Under the pieces are notes generated by a model that searched no databases, was not told the DNA's origin, and saw only the letters and a list, made by a program, of their open reading frames with translations. A DNA stretch of 64,000 bases from Candidatus Omnitrophota bacterium (GTDB taxonomy: Bacteria; Omnitrophota; Gorgyraeia; Duberdicusellales; Duberdicusellaceae). The stretch lies in contig JAFGCB010000025.1 of the NCBI GenBank assembly GCA_016932855.1, positions 13,868 to 77,867 of the forward strand, given 5' to 3'. Below are positions 9,445 through 50,115 of this stretch, one piece after another; positions within the stretch are counted from its first letter, which is position 1; each line of letters opens with the position of its first letter. The translations under genes and the position numbers were made by a program.

Positions 9445-10359
9445 TTGATGAAATTTAGAAAAGTATTCTTCATTTATTTTTTGTCTCTGGCGGTTTTCAT
9501 TTTTATCGCTTTTGAACTAAACCTCTGGCAGGCCGATCAACAATTACGTTCAGTAATGAGTTATTATATCCAAAAAAACCTGGAAAAAGGGGATTTTGAG
9601 GCCGCGGTAGTCATAAAGGATCTTACAAAGCGGCGCTTGGGCGATTTTCTTAGGAGACCTATTTATGTTTCTTTGAATGAAAACCAGTCTTTTCCGGCCG
9701 CCAGCTTGATTAAACTTCCTTTGATGGCTTGTTGTTTTAAGGCTGAAAGAGAAGGTAAGATAAATATTAACGATACCTATGTTTTAAAAAAGTCGGATAT
9801 TACCGGCGGCTCGGGAGTGCTTAAAGCTAAGAAGGCCGGTTCAGAATTTTCTTTGTTGGAGTTGATCGAGCTTATGATTTCCCAGAGCGATAATACCGCT
9901 TCCAATATTTTCATAAAGAAATTGGGCTTTGAATATCTTAACGCCTGCTTTAAGGATTTAGGTCTTAAACATACCGTGGTTAACCGGACGGTAATGGATT
10001 TAAATTCCCGAAAGAAAGGCATTGAGAATTTAACTTCGGCTTCGGATTTATCCTATCTTTACGAGGCTATTTATAAAAAAGATTTAGTGGATGCCGAAGC
10101 TTGCGAAACAATGCTTAAATTTTTATCCAATCAAAAAGTAAAGAACCGCCTGCCCCGCTATTTGCCTAAAGATATTACCATAGCTCATAAGACAGGCACG
10201 ATTCGCGGCATAGTACATGACGCCGGCATTGTTTTCAGTCCTAAAAGAGACTATATTATTTGTGTGCTTACCAAAGGTTCTAAAGGATATACCCTGCCCA
10301 AGGATTTCATAGCTGAAGTTTCCGAATTCGTGTATTATTTACTTGCTTATGGAAATTAA
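9445..10359 (+). CDS. Class A beta-lactamase-fold serine hydrolase (secreted or membrane-anchored)
   Basis: N-terminal TM/signal segment, SxxK-like ASLIK, and SDN (SQSDNTASN) and KTG (HKTGT) motifs. Confidence 0.65.
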   Translation: MMKFRKVFFIYFLSLAVFIFIAFELNLWQADQQLRSVMSYYIQKNLEKGDFEAAVVIKDLTKRRLGDFLRRPIYVSLNENQSFPAASLIKLPLMACCFKAEREGKININDTYVLKKSDITGGSGVLKAKKAGSEFSLLELIELMISQSDNTASNIFIKKLGFEYLNACFKDLGLKHTVVNRTVMDLNSRKKGIENLTSASDLSYLYEAIYKKDLVDAEACETMLKFLSNQKVKNRLPRYLPKDITIAHKTGTIRGIVHDAGIVFSPKRDYIICVLTKGSKGYTLPKDFIAEVSEFVYYLLAYGN

Positions 10360-18925: not shown

Positions 18926-19132
18926 ATGAAGCCTTTGATTTACTTGGTGTTTTTAATTTTTCTATTTTTCTTTGTTTTCTTCGCGAGCAACACCTGGCAG
19001 ACTGAGCATTCAACAGAAACCCGAGAGGGCATCGAGTACGTGGTAACCAGGCACAGCCTAGACTGGGATAATTTTTTTGACTATTTAAAAGATCTACCCA
19101 GAAATATACGCCTGCGTCTACCCACAAGATAA
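18926..19132 (+). CDS. Hypothetical small membrane protein
   Basis: 68 aa with a very hydrophobic N-terminus. Weak support. Confidence 0.3.
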   Translation: MKPLIYLVFLIFLFFFVFFASNTWQTEHSTETREGIEYVVTRHSLDWDNFFDYLKDLPRNIRLRLPTR

Positions 19133-19154: not shown

Positions 19155-19505
19155 ATGAAATACTTGGTTTTCGGTTTTCTGTTTATTTTTGTTTTTTATT
19201 CTCGCGGTTTCTCAGCCGAAGAAGGACGTATTGAACGAGCCCTTAACGAAGTTTTAGAGCTTCAAGCCCCTGAATATGAATGGATTCAGACCCTTAGCCC
19301 CGGCGCCGCCTCAATAGTAGTGGCTTTAGGTGAAATTGATGAAAACACTCCCGAAGCCACGGTTAAAATCAAGATTGAGGAAATTCTGGCTAAGATGCAA
19401 AAGATGAGGAAAGAATTAAAGTCTTATGGCATTACCATTGAGAGTTTTTCGCTTAATATAGGATTCCCGCCCTCTCTTACTATTAATTGCAAGTTCGAAG
19501 ATTAA
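19155..19505 (+). CDS. Hypothetical secreted protein
   Basis: Signal-peptide-like N-terminus (MKYLVFGFLFIFVFYSRGFSA). Confidence 0.4.
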   Translation: MKYLVFGFLFIFVFYSRGFSAEEGRIERALNEVLELQAPEYEWIQTLSPGAASIVVALGEIDENTPEATVKIKIEEILAKMQKMRKELKSYGITIESFSLNIGFPPSLTINCKFED

Positions 19506-19552
19506 ATGGTAAAATTCTAGTAATATACCTAATCCTTTTGAGGCTTAGATTT

Positions 19553-20020
19553 ATGAGAGATAAAAAGGCACTCGCTATAAAGGCTTTAGTTTTATTTATT
19601 GCCGTTTTTGTTTTTTATTGGGCAGCCAAGGCAGATGACAGCCATTGGTATTCAAAAAATCTTTTTGAAGTTACATCCGGCGGCGGGAAGAAATACCAAA
19701 TGGCTATTATTACTAAAACCAATGATAAAGACACCTGCGAGCAGATTCTTAACGCCAAAGGCATGGATGTAGGACGCTGGAAGAATATCGGTAATGATTG
19801 TTCTTCCGGTGAGACTAGCGACGAGGCTTTTGTTTCGATTTTTGATAATAAAGAAGTCGCAACTATTTATGTTTCTTTTGTCGATAATTACGGTTATCCT
19901 ACCCGGATTAACTTTATAGAAGCTCCCAAAGAATTTGCTAATCCCATTGCGGAAAATCTTGCCCAATCCCTGAAAGAGCAGGGCATAGAAAACGCCCAGG
20001 TCATTTATCCTCAGGATTAG
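19553..20020 (+). CDS. Hypothetical secreted protein
   Basis: Internal ATG chosen where a signal peptide begins (MRDKKALAIKALVLFIAVFVFYWAAKA). Confidence 0.4.
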   Translation: MRDKKALAIKALVLFIAVFVFYWAAKADDSHWYSKNLFEVTSGGGKKYQMAIITKTNDKDTCEQILNAKGMDVGRWKNIGNDCSSGETSDEAFVSIFDNKEVATIYVSFVDNYGYPTRINFIEAPKEFANPIAENLAQSLKEQGIENAQVIYPQD

Positions 20021-20177
20021 TCTTCGCAGCACAATCAATATCATCCCTATTTTTAAGCGATAAAATACAAAGATTTGCTTGCGGCCGGAGGGTATATATG
20101 CTATACTTATTCAACTGGATTTATCGCTGGGAGGCGGAAAATCCAGTTTTTTATTGTCTTTTGAGACTTTTTTAACT

Positions 20178-21515
20178 ATGCGGAAAATAGCGAAAAAATA
20201 CCCTGTTATTATTGTTTTATGTAATATTTTTCTCGGGTTTTCTTTTTCTGTTAAGGCCGGTTCTTTAGAGGGGTTTTCCGGTATCAAATTAGATATGGCA
20301 GCTGATAGTTTTCCGGTAGGCAGGCTGAATAGGGCCAGGGATATTCTCGATCCGGAAATCGCTGTATTCAAACAGGAACTGTTGAATTTCTCCGAATTTC
20401 ATTTAAAGACGGTGTTTAAGGAGCAGGGCTATTCAGAGGAGAAGATTTCCGAGATTTCAGATTCTTTCCAGGAACTTTTAAGCTTGATAGCCTCCCGCGT
20501 AGATATAGCTGAGATTAAGAACAGGCTGGGCTCATCCGATATAGAAATAGTTAACGACGCTTGTTTAGAGTTAATGTCGATATTAGGAGATTTGGGCTAT
20601 CTTCGCTCAGTTAAGCCGAAAGCACTGATTACAGATATAACTTATGGAATCAGAGGCGGTCAGGAATTTATCGGTTTTCTTGAAGATTCCGAGGTGTATT
20701 CCAAGCAACAAATTTCGAATCGCTTTGTCCGCTGTGTTTCCAAGACTTTTCTGGGCACTTTGCTCTTTGATTTTCTGGGAATCGAGGTAGAGTCGGCTTA
20801 TTTAAACCTGCATTCTTTTATAGCCATGCAGATAGGCAGTGAGATTTTACTTATTGACTTTGATGGCAGAAGAACGGATGTTATTAACACTTATAACTAT
20901 GAAACCAGGGGTAATTTTTTGGTTTTAAAGAGGCTGTTAGATGAAAATGGGTTAAGTACGGCTAAGGTGCCCGGCTTGTCTTATCCTTTTATTTATTTGG
21001 GAAACAGGAGCATGATTACCGCATTTCTAAACTATAATATGGGCCAGGCCTACCGCTGGGCAGGGTGTTTAGATAAGGCAGAAGAACATTTTCATCGAGC
21101 CATTGAATGCAATCCGGAGTGCGCGGAGAGTTATTACGGCCTGGGGCGTATTTACGGAGAATTACAGGATTTTAAAAAAGCTGAGCTTTATTATCAGCAG
21201 GCAGTAGATAAGAGCCCCTGGAATTTTCTTTTCTACGCCGGACTAGGACATGCGCTTTGTAAACTGAACCAGTATCACCGGGGTTTAGAGGCTTTTATGG
21301 AGGCGGTTAGTTTAAACCCCAAGTTCGCCAGAGGTTATTTCGCTATCGGCACTATTTATCAGAGGCTTGGAAGGCAGGATGAGGCTATTTTTTACTGGGC
21401 AAAGGCAGTTTCCCTGGATTTTCATCTGTTTTCATTGCTTTCTTCCTTCGATATTAAAGCTTATGTCATAGAGCAAATGCTAAAATCGCCTGAGCCGGCG
21501 TCTTTTAGCGGCTAG
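20178..21515 (+). CDS. TPR-repeat protein with signal peptide
   Basis: Internal ATG at the signal peptide (MRKIAKKYPVIIVLC...). C-terminal tandem TPRs (AESYYGLGRIYGELQDFKKAELYYQQAVDKSP etc.). Confidence 0.55.
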   Translation: MRKIAKKYPVIIVLCNIFLGFSFSVKAGSLEGFSGIKLDMAADSFPVGRLNRARDILDPEIAVFKQELLNFSEFHLKTVFKEQGYSEEKISEISDSFQELLSLIASRVDIAEIKNRLGSSDIEIVNDACLELMSILGDLGYLRSVKPKALITDITYGIRGGQEFIGFLEDSEVYSKQQISNRFVRCVSKTFLGTLLFDFLGIEVESAYLNLHSFIAMQIGSEILLIDFDGRRTDVINTYNYETRGNFLVLKRLLDENGLSTAKVPGLSYPFIYLGNRSMITAFLNYNMGQAYRWAGCLDKAEEHFHRAIECNPECAESYYGLGRIYGELQDFKKAELYYQQAVDKSPWNFLFYAGLGHALCKLNQYHRGLEAFMEAVSLNPKFARGYFAIGTIYQRLGRQDEAIFYWAKAVSLDFHLFSLLSSFDIKAYVIEQMLKSPEPASFSG

Positions 21516-21609
21516 AAAACGTTTTCATAAAAGTGTATGCACCCCTTGATTTTTCCTTAACGGTATGTTACACTAGTATGGTTAGCTTTTACCACGGTTA
21601 ACCAAAAAA

Positions 21610-21656
21610 TTTAGCAGGATAAAGGAAGTAGAAATACTTCCTTTTTTTATTGCCTT
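21610..21656 (+). terminator. Terminator-like repeat copy 1 (caggataaagg, 8-bp hairpin, T7, attgcct)
   Basis: aggaagta gaaa tacttcct followed by ttttttt. Direct repeat of 21748-21792. Confidence 0.45.
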
Positions 21657-21747
21657 GATTATCTTAAGGCTGGGTAGTTTCGGCAGGTAGAGTAAAGAAA
21701 GCCTTTACAGCCGCCTTTAATAAGGCTGGCCGAATTGAAAACAGGGA

Positions 21748-21792
21748 TTTAACAGGATAAAGGCAGAAGAACTCTGCCTTTTTTTATTGCCT
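21748..21792 (+). terminator. Terminator-like repeat copy 2
   Basis: aggcaga agaac tctgcct followed by ttttttt. Flanks are the same as copy 1, but the stem differs by compensatory changes. Confidence 0.45.
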
Positions 21793-21853
21793 AGCCTATG
21801 GGTAGAGGTTAGGTCCTTTAAATAGATGTTTTCGGAAAAAAAAGGAGGCGAAG

Positions 21854-24800
21854 ATGAAGACGGGGAAAACAAAGACTAAAAAGAATATTTTTTTATGGGG
21901 AATTATTTTTACGGGATTTCTTTTGGCGAATTTAAACTATGCTTATGCCTGGATGCCTAATTCTTTAGGCAATCCTGAGCTTCTTCAGGAAACCAACCAG
22001 CTTGCCCGCATGCAGCAAGTCATGGTTGATCTAGGTTATTTTAGAGTCATAGAAATAAAAAATCACCATATTCAATTGGGTGATAAGCAGCTGGAGGTTA
22101 TAGAAGCCTACAAGCGCGGCGAGGACGGCAAATTACATCATGTTTTGATTTCATCATTGAACGACGATTGCAGGAATCCGTCTCGTTTAGTTCAGGCGGT
22201 TCTTGCTAATGAGGATTTGCGCAATCTCATTACAGGCGCGCGGGGAAATAATGAAATTAAATTTTGGCTTGAGGTAGCATCTGCGTTAGTGGCTAGCAGC
22301 GACGAAGCTCTTATGGCTGAGTATGGTTCAAAACCAATACCTAAGCTTTACAGGGATATCTTAACCCAGAACGGAAAACCGGCACCGGATTATATTCTTA
22401 ATGAAAACAGGCTTCCTAGAGGAGCAATTTTGGTGGCGGTAGCTGATTTAGGGGTTGTAGACGAGGATGTAATTAATTTAGACGATACAGAAGTGGAAAC
22501 AGATTATAATTTCCCGCCTATAATTATTACCGGTAATCGGGAGCCTTTACCTGAAAATAAAGGCGGCTTGCGCCAGAGACACCCCGGGCCTACTCCGAAT
22601 ATTTTAATAGAAGAAATAGCCTTGACCGATTGGAACGTGGAAGCGCAAACCTATACGGTTGAGGTAGGATTTAAGAGCCAGGCTTTAGTATTTTCCAATC
22701 TAAAGGCAAGTGAAATACCCGAATTTGTCGAATTTGCAGAAGTCTATCTTGACTATCTTAACAATAAACAGAATTATATACAGCGAGGAAGAGAAATGCT
22801 GGGTGACAAAACCGATTTTACCAACGCTAAGATTGAAGGCATAATCGGGCTTGTTGATCATCTTAATCAGACAGGCAATGAATTTTTCGCTTCCAGGAAA
22901 GAAAACTTACTTTCGATTTTAGAGGGAAGTTCTGTGCATGACGGTGATTATACTGTCGGTCAATTTTACACTTCTGTTGATCAGACCGATAAGGTTTTCG
23001 CGGTATTTGAAGGCGAAATTCAACTTGTTTTCACCGGCGATGACGGCCAGCAGAAAAAAGTTTCGGTAAGCAGGGAATATGTAGTAGGCCTTCTTGCTCT
23101 TTGCGATATATCCGGCCGGGCAGCGTATCAGAACGATAATTTCTTCACCCAGGATGCCGGAAGAATTGCTGAAGGCCTTTTCGAGAGAGCTAAAGACGGG
23201 GATTATGCGTCTTTAAGCGAGCTCAGTGAGTTATATCATGATCCTGATACGCAGTACCTGGAAAGGCCGGGCGGCCAGGCCAGCGGTGCAGCAGATGGCA
23301 GTTTTCGCGTAGACGGCTCAGGCGCGACAGAAGACAGATGGCAGATTGACTTAGAGAATATAGGTTTTGATGGAATTGCTCTTTACAGAGTCGAAGCTAG
23401 AAGCGCCGGGGACGCAAATCACTTGGATGTGGCAATTGAGGCTGACGCACAGAGTAATATCCCTGCCGGCGCTAACGCGGAAGAGGGAGATTACTTAGGT
23501 AAGGCAGTCCTTACAGCTTCAGGCGCGCTTAACGGCCATGAAATTGTCACAAAAATTAACGGCTTAAGAATTACTGAACAGGGATTTACCTTTGAAGCAT
23601 TCCAAAGAGAAACCCAAGGCTATGTGGATAATGATTATTTTTGGGTAAATGCTCAGGTAGACCGTTCGACTAACCCCGAGAACTTTACCGGTCATGCGAC
23701 AGGCGAGTATAACGTGGGTCACATAAGCCGTGTTTTTGACGTAAGCGTTAATGCTGACAGCGGAGCAATCGAGGAAGTTAAAGAATTCTTAAGAGACAAT
23801 CTTCCTGATATAGATGAGGAAACAGCCATACAGATAGCAGAGGATGCTTACTCGAATATTGCAGCTTTAGTTGAGCGTAAATGGGAAAGCGGCGCTAATA
23901 TAACTTCCGAGGATATATACAATTGTATAGTTAACGCTATTGTGGATAACACTGACTACACCCGCAGCGAAGTCGGGGATATGGCGTCTGATCTTCGGCA
24001 GTTTGCCGACGCCATGTTTGAGCGGATAGTAACAACTAACTATGTTGAGACCCCCCGAGACAGCCGCACTTTACTTGATGATAAAAGAGATATAGGTATT
24101 GTGCTTGGTAAAGCATTTTCCGGAGAGTTAGAAATTCACGCCGTAGGCATTGAGGTAGACGGACGGGTGCAGGTCGGCTTTACAGTTGCAGAGGGAGGAG
24201 TTAAAGTCGGTCCTATGCAAGTAGTTGCCGCACCTACCATTACTTTACCGAAACCGGATATGAGTTTTACAGCTTTTCTTGAAAACGCTCATTTAACCGG
24301 CGCGGTTATAGGCTGGAACAGAAGTGAAAATATCGGTGACTTGAGTCAGAGTTTACTTGCCAGTTCGCAGGGTAAATTTAGTTCATCGCAGCTAGCAACT
24401 TACAGCCGATATTTGCGTGATTACATTGATGAAGCTAAGAATCCATCTTTTGGCTGGTCTGGCTTTGTAGGGTATTTAGGCAGGCCTGCTGAGGGTGATT
24501 ACGGTGTTTCCGGAGACAGGATGTTAAGTCAAGGCCTTGCCAAGGATGCCTATATAGCCACGCTTATCTACGGAAAATCAGCGGGTCTTAACAAAGAGAC
24601 TAAAGAGGGGCTTACTACCTTTTTAAGCTTTTGTTTAAACGATGAACTTGATTTTTCCGTTCCTCATGCGGATATAATAGCTCAGGTAGAGCAGCGACTT
24701 GAGAACCTCAATCGCGAGATAACCCTAAAGGATGTAAAGCAGGCTTTTAGTGAAGCTTTGGTGAATTTAGGTTTAGAAGGTCATGAGGCAGAGCTTTTTG

Positions 24801-25150
24801 AATCAGAGGCTTTTTCGCCTATGGCAAATTTAATTATTAAAGATATAAACACCCTGGTATACTTCGGGGTTAGTTTCATAAACCGGGATAATTCTAATTC
24901 CTTGCAGTTTAACGCGGGTTCTTCAAAAGCTTTTGGAAGCTTACTTCTTTCAACCAACCCCAGAGATAATTTCAACTTCTCAGCAGGGTTTGGCGTAAAA
25001 TTCAGTGATACTACGATCAGGTTTGGGTTGAATAAAGAAGGCAAGGGCCAGATTGATGCAGCAAGAAGTTTTGATAATGGAACAGTTTTAAGCGGCACAG
25101 CAACGCCCGGTCTTTATATGCTTCGTCTCGGTATACCCCTCAATCCATAA
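21854..25150 (+). CDS. Large (1098 aa) secreted/surface protein, unknown function
   Basis: Clean ORF with an SD (AAAGGAGG) and a signal peptide. It is Asp/Gly-rich, and its C-terminal ~200 aa have alternating amphipathic strands, possibly a beta-barrel or anchoring domain. No motif I can name. Confidence 0.6.
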   Translation: MKTGKTKTKKNIFLWGIIFTGFLLANLNYAYAWMPNSLGNPELLQETNQLARMQQVMVDLGYFRVIEIKNHHIQLGDKQLEVIEAYKRGEDGKLHHVLISSLNDDCRNPSRLVQAVLANEDLRNLITGARGNNEIKFWLEVASALVASSDEALMAEYGSKPIPKLYRDILTQNGKPAPDYILNENRLPRGAILVAVADLGVVDEDVINLDDTEVETDYNFPPIIITGNREPLPENKGGLRQRHPGPTPNILIEEIALTDWNVEAQTYTVEVGFKSQALVFSNLKASEIPEFVEFAEVYLDYLNNKQNYIQRGREMLGDKTDFTNAKIEGIIGLVDHLNQTGNEFFASRKENLLSILEGSSVHDGDYTVGQFYTSVDQTDKVFAVFEGEIQLVFTGDDGQQKKVSVSREYVVGLLALCDISGRAAYQNDNFFTQDAGRIAEGLFERAKDGDYASLSELSELYHDPDTQYLERPGGQASGAADGSFRVDGSGATEDRWQIDLENIGFDGIALYRVEARSAGDANHLDVAIEADAQSNIPAGANAEEGDYLGKAVLTASGALNGHEIVTKINGLRITEQGFTFEAFQRETQGYVDNDYFWVNAQVDRSTNPENFTGHATGEYNVGHISRVFDVSVNADSGAIEEVKEFLRDNLPDIDEETAIQIAEDAYSNIAALVERKWESGANITSEDIYNCIVNAIVDNTDYTRSEVGDMASDLRQFADAMFERIVTTNYVETPRDSRTLLDDKRDIGIVLGKAFSGELEIHAVGIEVDGRVQVGFTVAEGGVKVGPMQVVAAPTITLPKPDMSFTAFLENAHLTGAVIGWNRSENIGDLSQSLLASSQGKFSSSQLATYSRYLRDYIDEAKNPSFGWSGFVGYLGRPAEGDYGVSGDRMLSQGLAKDAYIATLIYGKSAGLNKETKEGLTTFLSFCLNDELDFSVPHADIIAQVEQRLENLNREITLKDVKQAFSEALVNLGLEGHEAELFESEAFSPMANLIIKDINTLVYFGVSFINRDNSNSLQFNAGSSKAFGSLLLSTNPRDNFNFSAGFGVKFSDTTIRFGLNKEGKGQIDAARSFDNGTVLSGTATPGLYMLRLGIPLNP

Positions 25151-25564
25151 GCTGGATAAAGGCGTGTAATTATCGCAGCCAGAATCAGCTTGAAAAGGGT
25201 TAAGGCCTGTGAAACAGGATGTTCTCGCAGGCCTTAAACCATTGTTAATTAAAGGGGACGCTTCTATTTTTTCACAATGAATATAAGCGCCCCCTTTTAC
25301 AAAATCCTTCTTTACACCCCCAAAAAAACCATATATAATAAATTTTCGCAAATATTCCCAAGGGTTTTCGTGTCTTTCGATGAATTCCGGAGGTTTTTAG
25401 CAATTGCAGGCACCTCGGCTTTAATAGCCTTAGTGCCGTCACTTGCCAGCGATAACTTAGTAGGCAAGTGATCCCGAGCAAAGCGAGGGAACTTTGAAAG
25501 GCATCTCGCTTCGCTCGATGCCGAAAAAAATAAAGGAAAGGGAACCTGATATTCTTCATTTTTT

Positions 25565-25640
25565 TCGGGAGGTGGCGCAGTCTGGATTAGCGCACTTGAA
25601 TGGGGTTCAAGGGGTCGTGGGTTCGAATCCCACCCTCCCG
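25565..25640 (+). tRNA. tRNA-Pro (anticodon GGG)
   Basis: Manual fold: acceptor CGGGAGG/CCTCCCG, D-stem GCGC, anticodon stem CTTGA/TCAAG with loop ATGGGGT (U33, GGG, G37), T-arm GTGGG TTCGAAT CCCAC, discriminator A. CCA is not encoded. Confidence 0.8.
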
Positions 25641-25726
25641 ACATAGAAAATAAATATTAAAAATCAAAAATCAAAAACTGATTTTTGAGTTTGTCCTTTA
25701 AGGGACATAGCGCAAGGGAGGTTGTT

Positions 25727-46662: not shown

Positions 46663-49600
46663 ATGGAACATTCAGATTTCGTTCATTTGCACGTCCACAC
46701 ACAATACAGCCTTTTAGACGGAGCCTGTCTTTTAAGCAGATTGCTGCAAAGAGCAAGCGAGCTTAAATTCCCTTCTTTGGCGATAACCGATCACGGAAAC
46801 CTTTTCGGAGCAATAGAATTCTATAGCTTGTGTTTTGAATACGGCATTAAGCCTATTATCGGAGCGGAATGTTATCTCGCGCCGAATTCGAGATTTGAGA
46901 AGAATTCACGAAGCCTGGAGGAGAACCAGTACCACATAGTTCTTTTGGTCAAAGATCACCAGGGCTATAAGAATCTTATTAAGTTGGTGAGCCTCGGCTA
47001 CTTGGAGGGTTTTTACTACAAGCCCCGGATAGACAAGGAGCTGCTTTCTCAGTATCACCAGGGGCTTATTTGTTTATCAAGCTGTCTTAAAGGCGAGATA
47101 CCCCGGAACATTCTTCAAAATAAATTCAGCCAAGCTTTAAAGACCGCCGACGATTATCTTCAAATTTTCGGCAAAGGGAATTTTTATTTGGAGGTTATGG
47201 AGAACGGAATACCCGAGCAGAAGACAGTAAACCACCAAATTTTGAAGATTTCCAAAGATTTAGGTTTGCCCTTGGTAGCCACCAATGACGTACATTACAT
47301 TAATCGCCAGGCTTCTTTTGCGCATGAGGTCCTTGTCTGCATTCAGACCCAGACTACTTTGACTGATCCCACGAGAATGAAGCTTAACAGCGATCAGTTT
47401 TATCTGCGCAGCGCTGAAGAGATGAAAGAGCTTTTCAAGGACTTGCCGCAGGCAGTATCCAATACTCTCGAGATAGCTGATAAGTGTAACTTGGAGCTTG
47501 ATTTTTCCCAGCTTCATCTCCCCAAATTTCCCTTGCCTGAATCAGTTGATGAAAATGTTTACTTGGAGAAACTTTGTGAGGAAAACTTACCTAGGCGCTT
47601 CAAGACGATAACCGCCCAAATGAAGGAAAGACTTTCAGCGGAGCTTAATATTATAAAAAAGACCGGTTTCGCCAGTTACTTTCTTATTATTTGGGATTTA
47701 ATAAAATATGCCAAAGAAAACCATATCCCTGTCGGTCCCGGCAGAGGTTCGGCCGCCGGAAGTTTGGTCAGTTTCACCTTAGGGATAACCGATGTAAACC
47801 CCTTGGCCTACAATCTCATATTCGAAAGATTCCTTAATCCTCAAAGAGTTACCATGCCTGATATCGATATAGACTTTTGTTATGAAAAGAGGCCGCAGGT
47901 CCTGCAGTATGTAGCGAATAGATACGGGGCCGGAAATGTAGCCCAGATTATCACTTTCGGGACCATGCTTTCCCGGGCTGTGGTAAGGGATGTGGGAAGA
48001 GTAATGGATTTCAGCTATTCTGAGGTCGACAGGATCGCCAAGCTCATACCTCACGAGAGCGGTATGACCTTACAGAGAGCGTTAGAGGTTAATCCCGAGC
48101 TTAAATCGATTTACGATAAAGATCAGAGGATAAAAGAGCTTATCGATACTGCTTTTTACTTAGAAGGCCTTTCCCGGCATGCTTCAGTCCACGCAGCCGG
48201 AGTGGTCATAAGCGATAAACCTTTGGTTGAATATGTTCCTTTATTCAGAACTCCCGATGACCAGGTGGTAACCGGTTTTGATATGAAATCTTTGGAAAAG
48301 ATAGGCCTCTTGAAGATGGATTTCTTAGGTCTTAAAACGCTTACTGTAATAGAGGAGACGGTAAAGATAATAAGGCGCACCCAGGGAAAAGCGATAGACA
48401 TAGATTCGATGTTCCTTTCCGATAAGAAAACTTATCAGCTGTTAACTATCGGAAATACCGCCGGGGTGTTCCAGGTAGAAAGTACAGGCATGAAAGAGCT
48501 TCTTAAGAGGCTTAAGCCCGAGAAGTTCGAGGATTTGATAGCGGTACTTGCTTTATACAGACCCGGTCCCATCGGAAGCGGCATGCTGGAGGATTTTATA
48601 CAGAGACGGCATAATCATAAGCCGGTCAATTATTTTCATCCCAGGCTTGAGCCTATCCTTAAAGAAACTTACGGAATAATTGTTTTCCAGGAGCAAGTTA
48701 TGCAGATCGCTTCGGCTCTTGCCGGCTTTACCTTCGCTGAAGCAGATTTATTAAGACGGGCTATGGGCAAGAAAATTTCCGAAGTAATGGAGGAGCAGAG
48801 AAAGCATTTTGTCGATGGTTGTATAAAAAATAAGATTCCGGAATCAATAGCTCAGAAGATATTCGATTTGATGGAATATTTCGCCGGTTACGGTTTTAAT
48901 AAAAGTCATTCTACCGCTTACGCCCTTATTTCATATAGAACAGCATATCTTAAGGCGAACTTTCCGGTTGAATTTATGTGCGCTCTTTTAACCTCAGAGA
49001 AGGATAATACCGATAAATTGGTTGAATACATAAACGAGGCTAAGCGTATGAATATAGAAATCTTACCTCCTGATATTAATCAGAGTTTTGCCGATTTTAC
49101 CGCCGTAGGCAAAACACGTATTAGGTTCGGGCTTCTGGCGATAAAAAATCTGGGAGATGCGGCGGTAAGAAATATTATTGAAAATCGTAGAAATGAAGGA
49201 AAATTCAAAGATATCTTTGATTTCTGCAGCAGGCTTGATTCTAAGGCAACAAATAAGAAGGTAATTGAAAGTCTTATAAAATGCGGGGCAATGGATGATT
49301 TCGGAAAAAGGGCTCAACTTCTGCAGGTTGTGCCGAAAATTTTAGAGTTAGCAAACCGGCTTTCTCGGGAGAAGGCTTCAGGCCAACTATCGATTTTTGG
49401 CGACGCGTTTTTATCAGGAGGCATAGATAAAAAGATGCTCCAGCTGCCGGATATTGAAGAGTGGCCTAAGCAGCAGATTCTCCAATTCGAAAAAGACCTT
49501 TTGGGTTTCTACATTACCGGCCATCCTCTAGCCAAATACCAGCAGCTTATAAAAAGGGCTAGAATTTTAAAGATCCGCGATGTATTCAGCCAATCTTTGC

Positions 49601-50115
49601 CTCGGCAGGATGAGCCGGTTGTCGCCGGTCTTATTGACAAGATTATTTTGACTACTACCCGAAAGTCTAAAGAGTTAATGGCGATTTTACGGATTGAGGA
49701 TGAGGATTCTTTTTTGGAGGCTTTTATTTTTCCTAAGGCATTCGAACAGGTAAGGGATCGTCTTAAGAAAGGAAGTATAATAGCAGCCCAGGGAAGAGTC
49801 AGTCTTAAGGAAGGCGCGCCCCGGCTTCTGGTGAGTAAAATAATCGATCTTGAGGAGGTTTATAGGTGGGTTTCCAAAATCGACCTGTATATAGAAAATC
49901 CAACTCAAGAGGTAGTCGATGAACTCAAAGCAATTCTTAAGACCTCTGTTGGCAGCACTCCCGTTGTTTTTCATTTCCTGCACCCTGAGATTAAATTCGT
50001 AAAGGTAAAACCCGGCAAGGATTTCTATGTTGAGCCTCGGGAGGGTTTACTTGGTCAGCTTTCTTCTTTGCTGGGTGAGAAAAATCTTTCTCTTACCCTG
50101 TCCGCTTCCGGCTGA
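46663..50115 (+). CDS. dnaE: DNA polymerase III alpha subunit
   Basis: PHP-domain N-terminus HLHVHTQYSLLDGA, polymerase core, OB fold, 1150 aa. Confidence 0.95.
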   Translation: MEHSDFVHLHVHTQYSLLDGACLLSRLLQRASELKFPSLAITDHGNLFGAIEFYSLCFEYGIKPIIGAECYLAPNSRFEKNSRSLEENQYHIVLLVKDHQGYKNLIKLVSLGYLEGFYYKPRIDKELLSQYHQGLICLSSCLKGEIPRNILQNKFSQALKTADDYLQIFGKGNFYLEVMENGIPEQKTVNHQILKISKDLGLPLVATNDVHYINRQASFAHEVLVCIQTQTTLTDPTRMKLNSDQFYLRSAEEMKELFKDLPQAVSNTLEIADKCNLELDFSQLHLPKFPLPESVDENVYLEKLCEENLPRRFKTITAQMKERLSAELNIIKKTGFASYFLIIWDLIKYAKENHIPVGPGRGSAAGSLVSFTLGITDVNPLAYNLIFERFLNPQRVTMPDIDIDFCYEKRPQVLQYVANRYGAGNVAQIITFGTMLSRAVVRDVGRVMDFSYSEVDRIAKLIPHESGMTLQRALEVNPELKSIYDKDQRIKELIDTAFYLEGLSRHASVHAAGVVISDKPLVEYVPLFRTPDDQVVTGFDMKSLEKIGLLKMDFLGLKTLTVIEETVKIIRRTQGKAIDIDSMFLSDKKTYQLLTIGNTAGVFQVESTGMKELLKRLKPEKFEDLIAVLALYRPGPIGSGMLEDFIQRRHNHKPVNYFHPRLEPILKETYGIIVFQEQVMQIASALAGFTFAEADLLRRAMGKKISEVMEEQRKHFVDGCIKNKIPESIAQKIFDLMEYFAGYGFNKSHSTAYALISYRTAYLKANFPVEFMCALLTSEKDNTDKLVEYINEAKRMNIEILPPDINQSFADFTAVGKTRIRFGLLAIKNLGDAAVRNIIENRRNEGKFKDIFDFCSRLDSKATNKKVIESLIKCGAMDDFGKRAQLLQVVPKILELANRLSREKASGQLSIFGDAFLSGGIDKKMLQLPDIEEWPKQQILQFEKDLLGFYITGHPLAKYQQLIKRARILKIRDVFSQSLPRQDEPVVAGLIDKIILTTTRKSKELMAILRIEDEDSFLEAFIFPKAFEQVRDRLKKGSIIAAQGRVSLKEGAPRLLVSKIIDLEEVYRWVSKIDLYIENPTQEVVDELKAILKTSVGSTPVVFHFLHPEIKFVKVKPGKDFYVEPREGLLGQLSSLLGEKNLSLTLSASG

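What the first reader, a model, noticed from the sequence alone, without database searches (positions are those of the whole stretch)
21854..25640. Giant (1098 aa) secreted protein of unknown function adjacent to tRNA-Pro(GGG)
This is the largest ORF in the region after dnaE. It has a signal peptide, is acidic and Gly/Asp-rich, and has no motif I can recognise. It ends in about 200 aa of alternating amphipathic strands (possibly a beta-barrel, a porin-like anchor or a sorting domain). It sits directly upstream of a tRNA gene, the classic landing site for horizontally acquired cargo, yet no integrase is present. Downstream of its stop there is an 8-bp hairpin (aaggcctg..caggcctt) with no T-run.
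Basis: partly seen in the sequence, partly recalled or inferred. Interest (0 to 1): 0.5.

Follow-up and report, generated by a model that had tools for sequence, protein, structure and literature searches.

The report
Orphan exported protein beside tRNA-Pro
This is a real gene for a large exported, acidic protein from an uncultured Omnitrophota bacterium that has no detectable relative among about 15 billion known proteins, so its function stays unknown and it is an ordinary "dark-matter" gene rather than demonstrable imported cargo.

Summary
The ORF (21854-25150, 1098 aa), its Sec-type signal peptide, its acidity (pI 4.6), tRNA-Pro(GGG) (25566-25642) and the downstream hairpin are all real. 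The C-terminal beta-amphipathic stretch covers about 100 aa, not 200, and 1098 aa is not giant for this phylum. GenBank lists the protein as MBN2120029.1, a hypothetical protein of a Candidatus Omnitrophica MAG.

It is a strict ORFan. It matched nothing in Pfam, NCBIfam, PHROGs, PADLOC, PDB sequences, phage, plasmid or viral collections, a 5.8-billion-cluster word search, or an exhaustive phmmer search of 1.84 billion representatives. Two AlphaFold2 runs failed (pLDDT 34-36).

It is the last of four consecutive exported genes. The 445-aa protein's N-domain has no homologue; the two small ones match no family.

In relatives, tRNA-Pro(GGG) is a recombination hotspot. One carries a 9.3-kb integrase element bounded by a 42-nt repeat of the tRNA's 5' half; others carry duplicated tRNA fragments. 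The window has no integrase, no att repeat and native codon usage, and the tRNA's conserved promoter lies between the gene and the tRNA.

Best reading: a fast-evolving, lineage-specific envelope or surface protein in a synteny-break region. Recent acquisition is not shown. Interest is low to moderate.

The parts
21854..25150 (+). CDS of the 1098-aa ORFan exported protein (GenBank MBN2120029.1, locus tag JW734_03100)
   Evidence: ORF list. Identical gene in the NCBI MAG and in an independent Logan assembly of SRR13394437. No homologue.
21842..21848 (+). Shine-Dalgarno AAGGAGG, 5 nt before the ATG
   Evidence: Read from the sequence.
21854..21949 (+). Codons 1-32: Sec-type signal peptide with a K-rich n-region, a 16-residue hydrophobic core and AYA|W
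   Evidence: Translation. Read by eye; no predictor was available.
23762..24028 (+). Residues about 637-725: the only segment AlphaFold2 models with moderate confidence (helical bundle, pLDDT 70-86)
24851..25147 (+). Residues about 1000-1098: C-terminal all-beta-looking module of about eight short amphipathic strands, 41% G/S/T/N and 12% aromatic, ending ...LRLGIPLNP
   Evidence: Period-2 hydrophobic moment and composition. No family hit at E<=10.
21609..21662 (+). First terminator-like unit upstream of the gene (CAGGATAAAGG, 10-bp hairpin, TTTTTTTATTGCC)
21747..21799 (+). Second copy of the same unit, with stem changes that keep the pairing. It ends 55 nt before the ATG.
   Evidence: The whole intergenic region folds with z = -4.5.
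25194..25243 (+).
   Evidence: (I1).
25251..25298 (+). Second hairpin (AAAGGGGACGCTTCTATT...AATATAAGCGCCCCCTTT) ending in TTTT; the probable intrinsic terminator of the gene
   Evidence: Inferred; it is weaker than the scan's terminator criteria.
25311..25339 (+). Near-consensus promoter TTTACA-17-TATAAT, conserved with relative L003 and assigned to the tRNA. It marks the right-hand limit of the ORFan cluster.
25566..25642 (+). tRNA-Pro(GGG)
   Evidence: ARAGORN. Rfam RF00005, 59.8 bits.
20178..21515 (+). Upstream neighbour: exported 445-aa protein with an ORFan N-domain and C-terminal TPR repeats (MBN2120028.1)
19553..20020 (+). Upstream neighbour: 155-aa protein with a signal-peptide-like N-terminus; no family hit and a singleton cluster
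19155..19505 (+). Upstream neighbour: 116-aa protein with a signal-peptide-like N-terminus; no family hit and a singleton cluster

Best explanation
SHOWN
- This is a genuine protein-coding gene with a strong ribosome-binding site.
- Two terminator-like hairpins upstream and one or two downstream set it apart as its own transcription unit.
- It has no detectable homologue, repeat, paralogue in the window, or known motif.
- Its composition is native to this genome.

INFERRED FROM SEQUENCE
- The product is exported through Sec, with the signal peptide cut after Ala32.
- The mature protein is about 117 kDa and acidic, with mixed alpha/beta content. It ends in a module of about 100 aa made of short amphipathic beta strands.

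INFERRED FROM CONTEXT AND FROM THE BIOLOGY OF THE PHYLUM
- It acts in the cell envelope or on the cell surface of this Omnitrophota bacterium.
- It is most likely a structural or contact (adhesin-like) protein, held at or in the outer membrane by its C-terminal beta module.
- The co-located exported TPR protein may be a periplasmic partner.
- Exposure at the surface would drive fast divergence. Together with the thin sampling of this lineage (the nearest relatives have only 61-66% identical homoserine dehydrogenase), that would explain why no relative is detectable.
- The gene lies in a region where synteny breaks at tRNA-Pro(GGG). That site is a recombination hotspot in relatives, but the gene is not demonstrably recent mobile cargo.
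For: - **Real gene:**
- **Export signal:** all four consecutive genes from 19155 to 25150 have signal-peptide-like N-termini and acidic pI.
- **ORFan status:**. The N-domain of the TPR neighbour is also ORFan. All four are singleton 90% clusters.
- **C-terminal beta module:**
- **Own transcription unit:**
- **Native composition:** synonymous codon-usage distance is 0.094, like dnaE (0.105) and other long genes. GC is 0.437, within the window's range. The tetranucleotide deviation is reproduced, and exceeded, when the same protein is re-encoded with window codon usage, as for dnaE.
- **Synteny break at the tRNA:** downstream, tRNA-Pro(GGG)-PilZ-hom-thrC-apgM is conserved. Upstream differs in every relative.
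- **Phylum context:** large, poorly conserved, domain-poor ORFs proposed as adhesins are described in Omnitrophota (PMC10066038). Most long Omnitrophota proteins carry a signal peptide or TM helices, and hypervariable loci are common (bioRxiv 10.64898/2026.06.07.730766).
Against: - No positive evidence of function exists.
- Both AlphaFold2 models are unusable (mean pLDDT 36 and 34), and Foldseek returned only noise (best E 0.03, TM <= 0.26).
- The C-terminus lacks the terminal aromatic residue typical of BAM substrates.
- About 100 aa is short for a monomeric membrane barrel. A soluble beta-sandwich would give the same pattern.
- No outer-membrane, adhesin, S-layer or sorting-domain model matches.
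- The signal peptide was read by eye only.
- There are no expression data.
- The partnership with the TPR protein is a guess, and two terminators separate the two genes.
Confidence: 0.45

Rival explanations
1. The gene is cargo of an old, decayed integrative element. The four exported ORFan genes (about 19.1-25.3 kb) would have arrived with an element that used tRNA-Pro(GGG) as its attachment site. The integrase and att repeats were later lost, and the DNA drifted to the host's composition.
For: - The same tRNA is an active integration site in relative L004. There, a perfect 42-nt direct repeat of the tRNA's 5' half bounds 9.3 kb carrying a Phage_integrase (E 9e-38), DnaB_N+AAA_25 and a second integrase. 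The element lies on the tRNA's 5' side, the same side as this gene.
- L003 and L036 carry a second, partial tRNA-Pro copy. Contigs of all three close relatives begin at or within about 170 nt of a tRNA-Pro sequence.
- The ancestral upstream neighbour gpsA, seen in L004 and L037, is absent from the window.
- None of the four genes matches a family outside the TPR repeats, and the big protein and the TPR N-domain have no homologue.
Against: - No tyrosine recombinase is found in 64 kb.
- No tRNA-fragment repeat is found. The longest off-target matches are 15 nt or less and lie in A-rich flanks.
- Codon usage and composition are native.
- No phage, plasmid or viral homologue is found.
- The conserved tRNA promoter lies between the cluster and the tRNA. 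In L004 the element abuts the tRNA within 10 nt.
- No discrete insertion boundary can be drawn, because gpsA is missing altogether.
Confidence: 0.25
2. The protein is a soluble periplasmic or fully secreted protein, such as an enzyme, binding protein or matrix component. The C-terminal beta stretch would be an ordinary soluble beta-sandwich domain, not a membrane anchor.
For: - It has a signal peptide but no further hydrophobic helix, no lipobox and no known anchor or sorting motif.
- The C-terminus ends in Pro, without a beta-signal aromatic.
- The module is only about 100 aa.
- About 9% of long Omnitrophota proteins are signal-peptide-only (bioRxiv 10.64898/2026.06.07.730766).
Against: - No catalytic motif is present: no HExxH, GDSL or Walker A, and only one isolated GxSxG.
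- No enzyme or binding family matches.
- The low-charge, G/S/T/N-rich and aromatic-rich C-terminus with period-2 hydrophobicity is more typical of membrane beta strands. This point is weak.
Confidence: 0.25
3. The ORF is not a functional gene: either a spurious or decaying ORF, or an assembly artefact.
For: No homologue exists anywhere, so purifying selection cannot be measured. There are no expression data.
Against: - 1098 open codons at 42% GC arise by chance at about 1e-30.
- The SD is strong.
- The codon-position GC pattern is coding-like (GC1 0.54 > GC3 0.40 > GC2 0.38), and synonymous usage is typical.
- The signal peptide is canonical.
- The sequence is identical in two assemblies.
Confidence: 0.03

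Closest known systems
Large, poorly conserved, domain-poor exported ORFs of Omnitrophota (and of Patescibacteria and Nanohaloarchaeota), proposed as adhesins or host-contact proteins (PMC10066038; bioRxiv 10.1101/2023.11.21.568195; bioRxiv 10.64898/2026.06.07.730766)
   Same: Same phylum. It has an N-terminal export signal, few or no annotated domains and very poor conservation. It sits in a variable genomic neighbourhood.
   Different: At 1098 aa it is 10 to 100 times shorter than the 'giant' class (10,000 aa or more). It has no TM helices beyond the signal peptide and no repeats. It has none of the adhesin-type domains (laminin_G_3, dockerin) reported for some giants. It shares no sequence similarity with any of them.
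tRNA-linked integrative elements and genomic islands, as exemplified here by the 9.3-kb element in relative L004
   Same: The gene is adjacent to the very tRNA, and on the same 5' side, that an integrase element uses in L004. The gene content is lineage-specific and upstream synteny is broken.
   Different: The window has no integrase, no att direct repeat, no compositional anomaly and no mobile-element genes. The gene is separated from the tRNA by the tRNA's own conserved promoter.
Outer-membrane-anchored surface proteins with a C-terminal beta domain (type V autotransporters, trimeric autotransporter anchors, small 8-stranded OMPs)
   Same: It has a Sec signal peptide, a large passenger-like N-terminal part and a C-terminal stretch of short amphipathic beta strands, rich in Gly, Ser, Thr, Asn and aromatics and preceded by helices.
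   Different: No Pfam or NCBIfam autotransporter, YadA-anchor or OMP model matches, even at E<=10. There is no C-terminal aromatic beta-signal. The module is shorter than any monomeric barrel I know of (own knowledge). The structure could not be predicted.
T9SS cargo proteins with an Ig-like C-terminal sorting domain of about 80-100 aa
   Same: The size and all-beta character of the C-terminal module, and the N-terminal Sec signal.
   Different: No hit to the curated CTD models. T9SS is known from the Bacteroidota and related phyla, not from Omnitrophota (own knowledge). No other protein in the window shares the module.

Membership tests
Any curated protein family (Pfam-A, NCBIfam, PHROGs, PADLOC) | A score above the family's curated cut-off | tested here: not met
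   Full length: the best hit is PF23786 at 13.8 bits against a cut-off of 27. NCBIfam, PHROGs and PADLOC gave 0 hits. Five fragments at E<=10 gave only hits of 12-13.5 bits.
tRNA-linked genomic island or integrative element | An integrase (tyrosine recombinase) in or beside the island | tested here: not met
   tblastn of two L004 integrases against the whole window: best E 0.012 over 36 aa. Serine recombinases and transposases were not screened.
tRNA-linked genomic island or integrative element | A direct repeat of part of the tRNA (attL/attR) bounding the island | tested here: not met
   The window has no tRNA-derived repeat; matches are 15 nt or less and lie in A-rich flanks. The positive control L004 has a perfect 42-nt repeat at 356-397 and 9697-9738.
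tRNA-linked genomic island or integrative element | Composition or codon usage that deviates from the host | tested here: not met
   Synonymous codon-usage distance is 0.094, typical for long genes. The tetranucleotide deviation is explained by amino-acid composition.
tRNA-linked genomic island or integrative element | Absent from the same site in related genomes, at a site used by mobile elements | tested here: inconclusive
   No homologue exists anywhere, and upstream flanks differ in L004, L037 and L038. However, the three closest relatives have contigs that stop at the tRNA, and gpsA is missing from the window. An empty site could therefore not be shown.
Outer-membrane beta-barrel proteins (BAM substrates), including autotransporter and YadA-type anchors | A match to an OMP, autotransporter or anchor model | tested here: not met
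   No such Pfam or NCBIfam hit, even for the isolated C-terminal 117 aa at E<=10.
Outer-membrane beta-barrel proteins (BAM substrates), including autotransporter and YadA-type anchors | A C-terminal beta-signal ending in an aromatic residue | tested here: not met
   The protein ends ...GLYMLRLGIPLNP.
Outer-membrane beta-barrel proteins (BAM substrates), including autotransporter and YadA-type anchors | Amphipathic beta strands in sufficient number to close a barrel | tested here: inconclusive
   About eight short period-2 strands fall in about 100 aa. The AF2 models have pLDDT below 50 there. No barrel predictor was available.
T9SS, PEP-CTERM or LPXTG sorting-signal proteins | A match to a curated sorting-domain model or motif | tested here: not met
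   NCBIfam gave 0 hits for the C-terminal fragment at E<=10. There is no LPxTG or PEP motif.
RTX / T1SS giant adhesins | GGxGxD nonapeptide repeats, tandem Ig-like repeats, and no N-terminal signal peptide | tested here: not met
   There is no GGxGxD motif and no internal repeat. An N-terminal Sec signal is present.
Omnitrophota 'giant' ORFs | Length of 10,000 aa or more | tested here: not met
   1098 aa. Threshold taken from bioRxiv 10.64898/2026.06.07.730766.
Sec-exported proteins | An N-terminal signal peptide with n, h and c regions and an AxA-type cleavage site | tested here: met
   MKTGKTKTKKN-IFLWGIIFTGFLLANL-NYAYA|W. Judged by eye; SignalP and DeepTMHMM were not available.

The most novel reading that the evidence does not exclude
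The protein founds a new family of Omnitrophota surface proteins. On this reading, its C-terminal module of about 100 aa and eight strands is a previously undescribed minimal outer-membrane anchor or sorting domain. The co-located exported ORFan proteins, including the TPR protein, would form a dedicated assembly or contact apparatus for attachment to a host or partner cell. The cluster would have been delivered or shuffled through the 5'-half tRNA-Pro(GGG) integration hotspot.
Probability: 0.1. Interest if true: 0.55.

Novelty: new member of a known kind. Interest (0 to 1): 0.22.

Why it matters
If it is a surface or contact protein, it would add to the poorly understood set of envelope proteins through which ultra-small, probably host-dependent Omnitrophota interact with partners. 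It would also show how quickly such genes diverge beyond recognition. As things stand, its main value is as a well-documented example of a long, clearly real gene with no detectable relative among about 15 billion proteins. That makes it a useful test case for single-sequence structure predictors. The more concrete by-product is the evidence that tRNA-Pro(GGG) is a recombination hotspot in this lineage, with integration through the tRNA's 5' half. Nothing here opens a long-standing question to direct test.

Tried and rejected
SEQUENCE SEARCHES, ALL EMPTY
- Pfam, NCBIfam, PHROGs and PADLOC, both full length and as five fragments at E<=10.
- PDB sequences at E<=10.
- The 5.8-billion-cluster word-index search.
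- Exhaustive phmmer over 1.84 billion representatives.
- tblastn against phages and plasmids, a viral-contig scan, and tblastn against all 37 fetched relatives' loci.

WEAK NEGATIVE
- The C-terminal 113 aa alone, searched at E<=10, returned nothing. It did not recover the protein itself either, so that negative counts for little.

STRUCTURE
- AlphaFold2 single-sequence runs on the full length and on residues 740-1098 gave mean pLDDT 36 and 34.
- Foldseek against PDB gave only noise. The best hit was PUR-alpha at E 0.03 with rmsd 14 A. I rejected it.

REJECTED LEADS
- The 'Baseplate_wedge' hit scored 13.8 bits against a cut-off of 27.
- The shared DLGY[FL]R stretch between the big protein and the TPR neighbour had E 9.7.
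- The 26-nt match of 18957-18982 to L007, L010 and L035 is T-rich low complexity.
- The tetranucleotide outlier signal was rejected as evidence of foreign DNA after the re-encoding control.
- 'CAGGATAAAGG' is not a genome-wide motif; it is essentially local.

NOT ACHIEVED
- I could not define an insertion boundary. gpsA, the ancestral upstream neighbour in L004 and L037, is absent from the window, and the closest relatives' contigs stop at the tRNA.

Full report
OBSERVATION

The ORF is real. It runs 21854..25150 on the + strand, starts with ATG and encodes 1098 aa. AAGGAGG lies 5 nt upstream of the start. It is the second-longest ORF in the window, after dnaE at 46663..50115 with 1150 aa. At 42% GC about 6% of codons would be stops, so 1098 open codons arise by chance at roughly 1e-30 (my arithmetic).

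The N-terminus, MKTGKTKTKKN-IFLWGIIFTGFLLANL-NYAYA|W, has the three regions of a Sec signal peptide. I judged this by eye. The protein has pI 4.6 and is net negative almost throughout. Gly (8.7%) and Asp (7.2%) are only mildly enriched.

The claimed 200 aa of amphipathic strands shrinks to about 100 aa. Only residues 1000-1098 have a period-2 hydrophobic moment above the helical one. They are 41% G/S/T/N (25% elsewhere), 12% aromatic and low in charge. Residues 900-1000 score as helical.

tRNA-Pro(GGG) lies at 25566..25642, which is 415 nt after the stop codon rather than directly adjacent. The AAGGCCTG..CAGGCCTT hairpin exists and lacks a T-run. A second hairpin follows at 25251-25297 and ends in TTTT. 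It is the likelier terminator.

WHAT IT IS

GenBank holds the protein as MBN2120029.1, 'hypothetical protein JW734_03100', from a Candidatus Omnitrophica MAG on a 184,839-bp contig. An independent Logan assembly of SRR13394437 carries the identical gene.

Nothing matches it:
- No Pfam, NCBIfam, PHROGs or PADLOC family, either full length or as five fragments at E<=10.
- No PDB sequence at E<=10.
- No phage, plasmid or viral-contig match.
- Only itself in the 5.8-billion-cluster search.
- Only itself in an exhaustive phmmer search of 1.84 billion representatives, which stand for about 15 billion proteins.

It has no internal repeat and no paralogue in the window. It has no catalytic, calcium-binding or sorting motif, and it ends ...GIPLNP.

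AlphaFold2 without an alignment failed twice. Mean pLDDT was 36 for the full length and 34 for residues 740-1098. Only a helical segment at about 637-725 reached pLDDT 70-86. Foldseek against the PDB gave no hit at E<=0.001, and its top hits have rmsd of about 14 A. Function cannot be read from homology or from fold.

CONTEXT

The gene is the last of four consecutive + strand genes: 19155-19505, 19553-20020, 20178-21515 and 21854-25150. All four begin with signal-peptide-like N-termini, are acidic, and form singleton clusters.

The third gene carries C-terminal TPR repeats. Its 289-aa N-domain is also without homologues.

A 338-nt structured spacer (z = -4.5) separates the big gene from the TPR gene. 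The spacer contains two copies of a unit of about 50 nt, CAGGATAAAGG-hairpin-TTTTTTTATTGCC. The stems differ between the copies but keep their pairing. No good sigma-70 promoter follows them.

Flanking genes on both sides are ordinary housekeeping or regulatory genes:
- Upstream: M48 peptidase, DUF3047, nitroreductase and a response regulator.
- Downstream: PilZ, hom, thrC and apgM.

WAS IT HORIZONTALLY ACQUIRED?

Downstream synteny, tRNA-Pro(GGG)-(PilZ)-hom-thrC-apgM, is conserved in relatives. Upstream of the tRNA, every relative differs.

L004 carries a 9.3-kb element:
- It has a Phage_integrase (E 9e-38) that ends 10 nt before the tRNA.
- It also has DnaB_N+AAA_25 and a second integrase.
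- It is bounded by a perfect 42-nt direct repeat of the tRNA's 5' half, at L004 356-397 and 9697-9738.
- Left of the far repeat lies the end of gpsA.

L037 has gpsA directly before tRNA-Pro(GGG). L038 has rluA and no tRNA.

In the three closest relatives the tRNA-Pro is duplicated, or the contig stops inside it:
- L003 has a full tRNA plus a 3' fragment that carries a 62-nt insertion.
- L036 begins inside that same fragment.
- L002 begins at the last 18 nt of the tRNA.

The locus is therefore a recombination hotspot, and integration on the 5' side does occur in this lineage.

The window itself carries none of the hallmarks:
- It has no tyrosine recombinase and no tRNA-derived repeat.
- GC is 0.437, within the window's range of 0.37-0.48.
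- Synonymous codon-usage distance is 0.094, like dnaE and other long genes.
- A tetranucleotide deviation (z about 2.8) is reproduced and exceeded when the same protein is re-encoded with window codon usage, exactly as for dnaE. It therefore reflects amino-acid composition.
- The promoter TTTACA-17-TATAAT at 25311-25339 is conserved with L003. It lies between the gene and the tRNA, so the cluster sits outside the tRNA transcription unit.
- gpsA is absent from the whole window, so no discrete insertion can be outlined.

Ancient acquisition followed by amelioration cannot be excluded. Recent acquisition is not supported.

MECHANISM

- **Shown:** this is a real gene that appears to be transcribed independently, and it encodes an ORFan protein of native composition.
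- **Inferred from sequence:** the protein is exported through Sec and cleaved after Ala32. The mature protein is acidic, about 117 kDa, of mixed alpha/beta content, and ends in a module of about eight short amphipathic strands.
- **Inferred from context and the literature:** it has an envelope or surface role, most plausibly structural or contact (adhesin-like). It would be held at the outer membrane by the C-terminal module. Fast divergence and sparse sampling of the lineage would explain the lack of relatives. Omnitrophota are reported to carry large, poorly conserved, domain-poor ORFs proposed as adhesins (PMC10066038). Ninety-four per cent of their long proteins carry a signal peptide or TM helices, and hypervariable loci are common (bioRxiv 10.64898/2026.06.07.730766).

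I give this composite reading 0.45. The rivals are decayed island cargo (0.25), a soluble periplasmic or secreted protein without an anchor (0.25), and a non-functional ORF (0.03).

COMPARISON AND NOVELTY

The protein works most like the class of lineage-specific exported ORFs of Omnitrophota, but it belongs to no defined family. It fails the tested criteria for the following:
- OMP, autotransporter and YadA-type anchors: no model hit and no terminal aromatic.
- T9SS, PEP-CTERM and LPXTG sorting signals.
- RTX adhesins.
- Omnitrophota giant ORFs, on length.
- A tRNA-linked island: no integrase, no att repeat and no compositional deviation.

It is best filed as a new member of a known kind, namely uncharacterised exported ORFans of candidate phyla.

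VERDICT

The island idea is true of the locus in relatives but unproven for this gene. The barrel or sorting-domain idea remains open.

A specialist would not be surprised by an ORFan envelope protein in an Omnitrophota MAG. A complete absence of relatives for a 1098-aa protein is mildly notable. Interest is 0.22.

Noticed in passing
L004:356-9738 (contig CAZMYR010000035.1): An intact 9.3-kb integrative element with two tyrosine recombinases, a DnaB_N+AAA_25 protein, a retropepsin-like protease and small lipoproteins. It is bounded by a perfect 42-nt direct repeat equal to the 5' half of tRNA-Pro(GGG), through the anticodon. The element therefore sits on the 5' side of the intact tRNA and supplies its 5' half. 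From memory, this is the reverse of the usual polarity, where the 3' end is targeted.
   Followed up: partly
L003:328-449 and L036:1-123: A second, 5'-truncated copy of tRNA-Pro(GGG) lies downstream of the intact gene. It carries a 62-nt insertion made of two hairpins in the T-arm. The copy is identical in two different assemblies, and contigs of the close relatives break at these duplicated tRNA pieces.
   Followed up: partly
window:25346-25565: The tRNA-Pro promoter (25311-25339) is conserved with L003. In the window, however, about 225 nt separate it from the tRNA, against about 55 nt in L003. The extra leader of about 170 nt folds into three or four strong hairpins (z = -3.1; the whole 415-nt gap gives z = -5.3). 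It matches no Rfam family and nothing in the relatives' loci. It could be an unknown co-transcribed RNA or a recombination scar.
   Followed up: partly
window:21516-21853: Two copies, 138 nt apart, of a terminator-like unit of about 50 nt (ATTTARCAGGATAAAGG, hairpin, TTTTTTTATTGCC). Stem changes between the copies keep the pairing. They sit in a highly structured spacer (z = -4.5), and no clear promoter lies between the second copy and the big gene. This could be tandem small RNAs or an attenuator controlling the gene. There is no Rfam match, and the motif is local to this spacer.
   Followed up: partly
window:18925-19131: An uncalled 68-codon ORF (MKPLIYLVFLIFLFFFVFFASNTWQ...) with a hydrophobic N-terminus lies in the gap between the response-regulator gene and the first ORFan gene. 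It could be a fifth small exported or membrane protein of the cluster.
   Followed up: no
window:20079-21515: The mechanical ORF of the TPR neighbour starts at a TTG and gives 478 aa, as in the Logan gene call. The NCBI protein starts at the internal ATG at 20178 and gives 445 aa. The ATG start places the signal-peptide-like sequence at the N-terminus and is the more plausible one.
   Followed up: partly
window:1-64000: Every ORF of 150 aa or more that looks like a gene is on the + strand. GC skew is positive in 63 of the 64 1-kb bins, so the window lies on one replichore with extreme co-orientation of genes.
   Followed up: no
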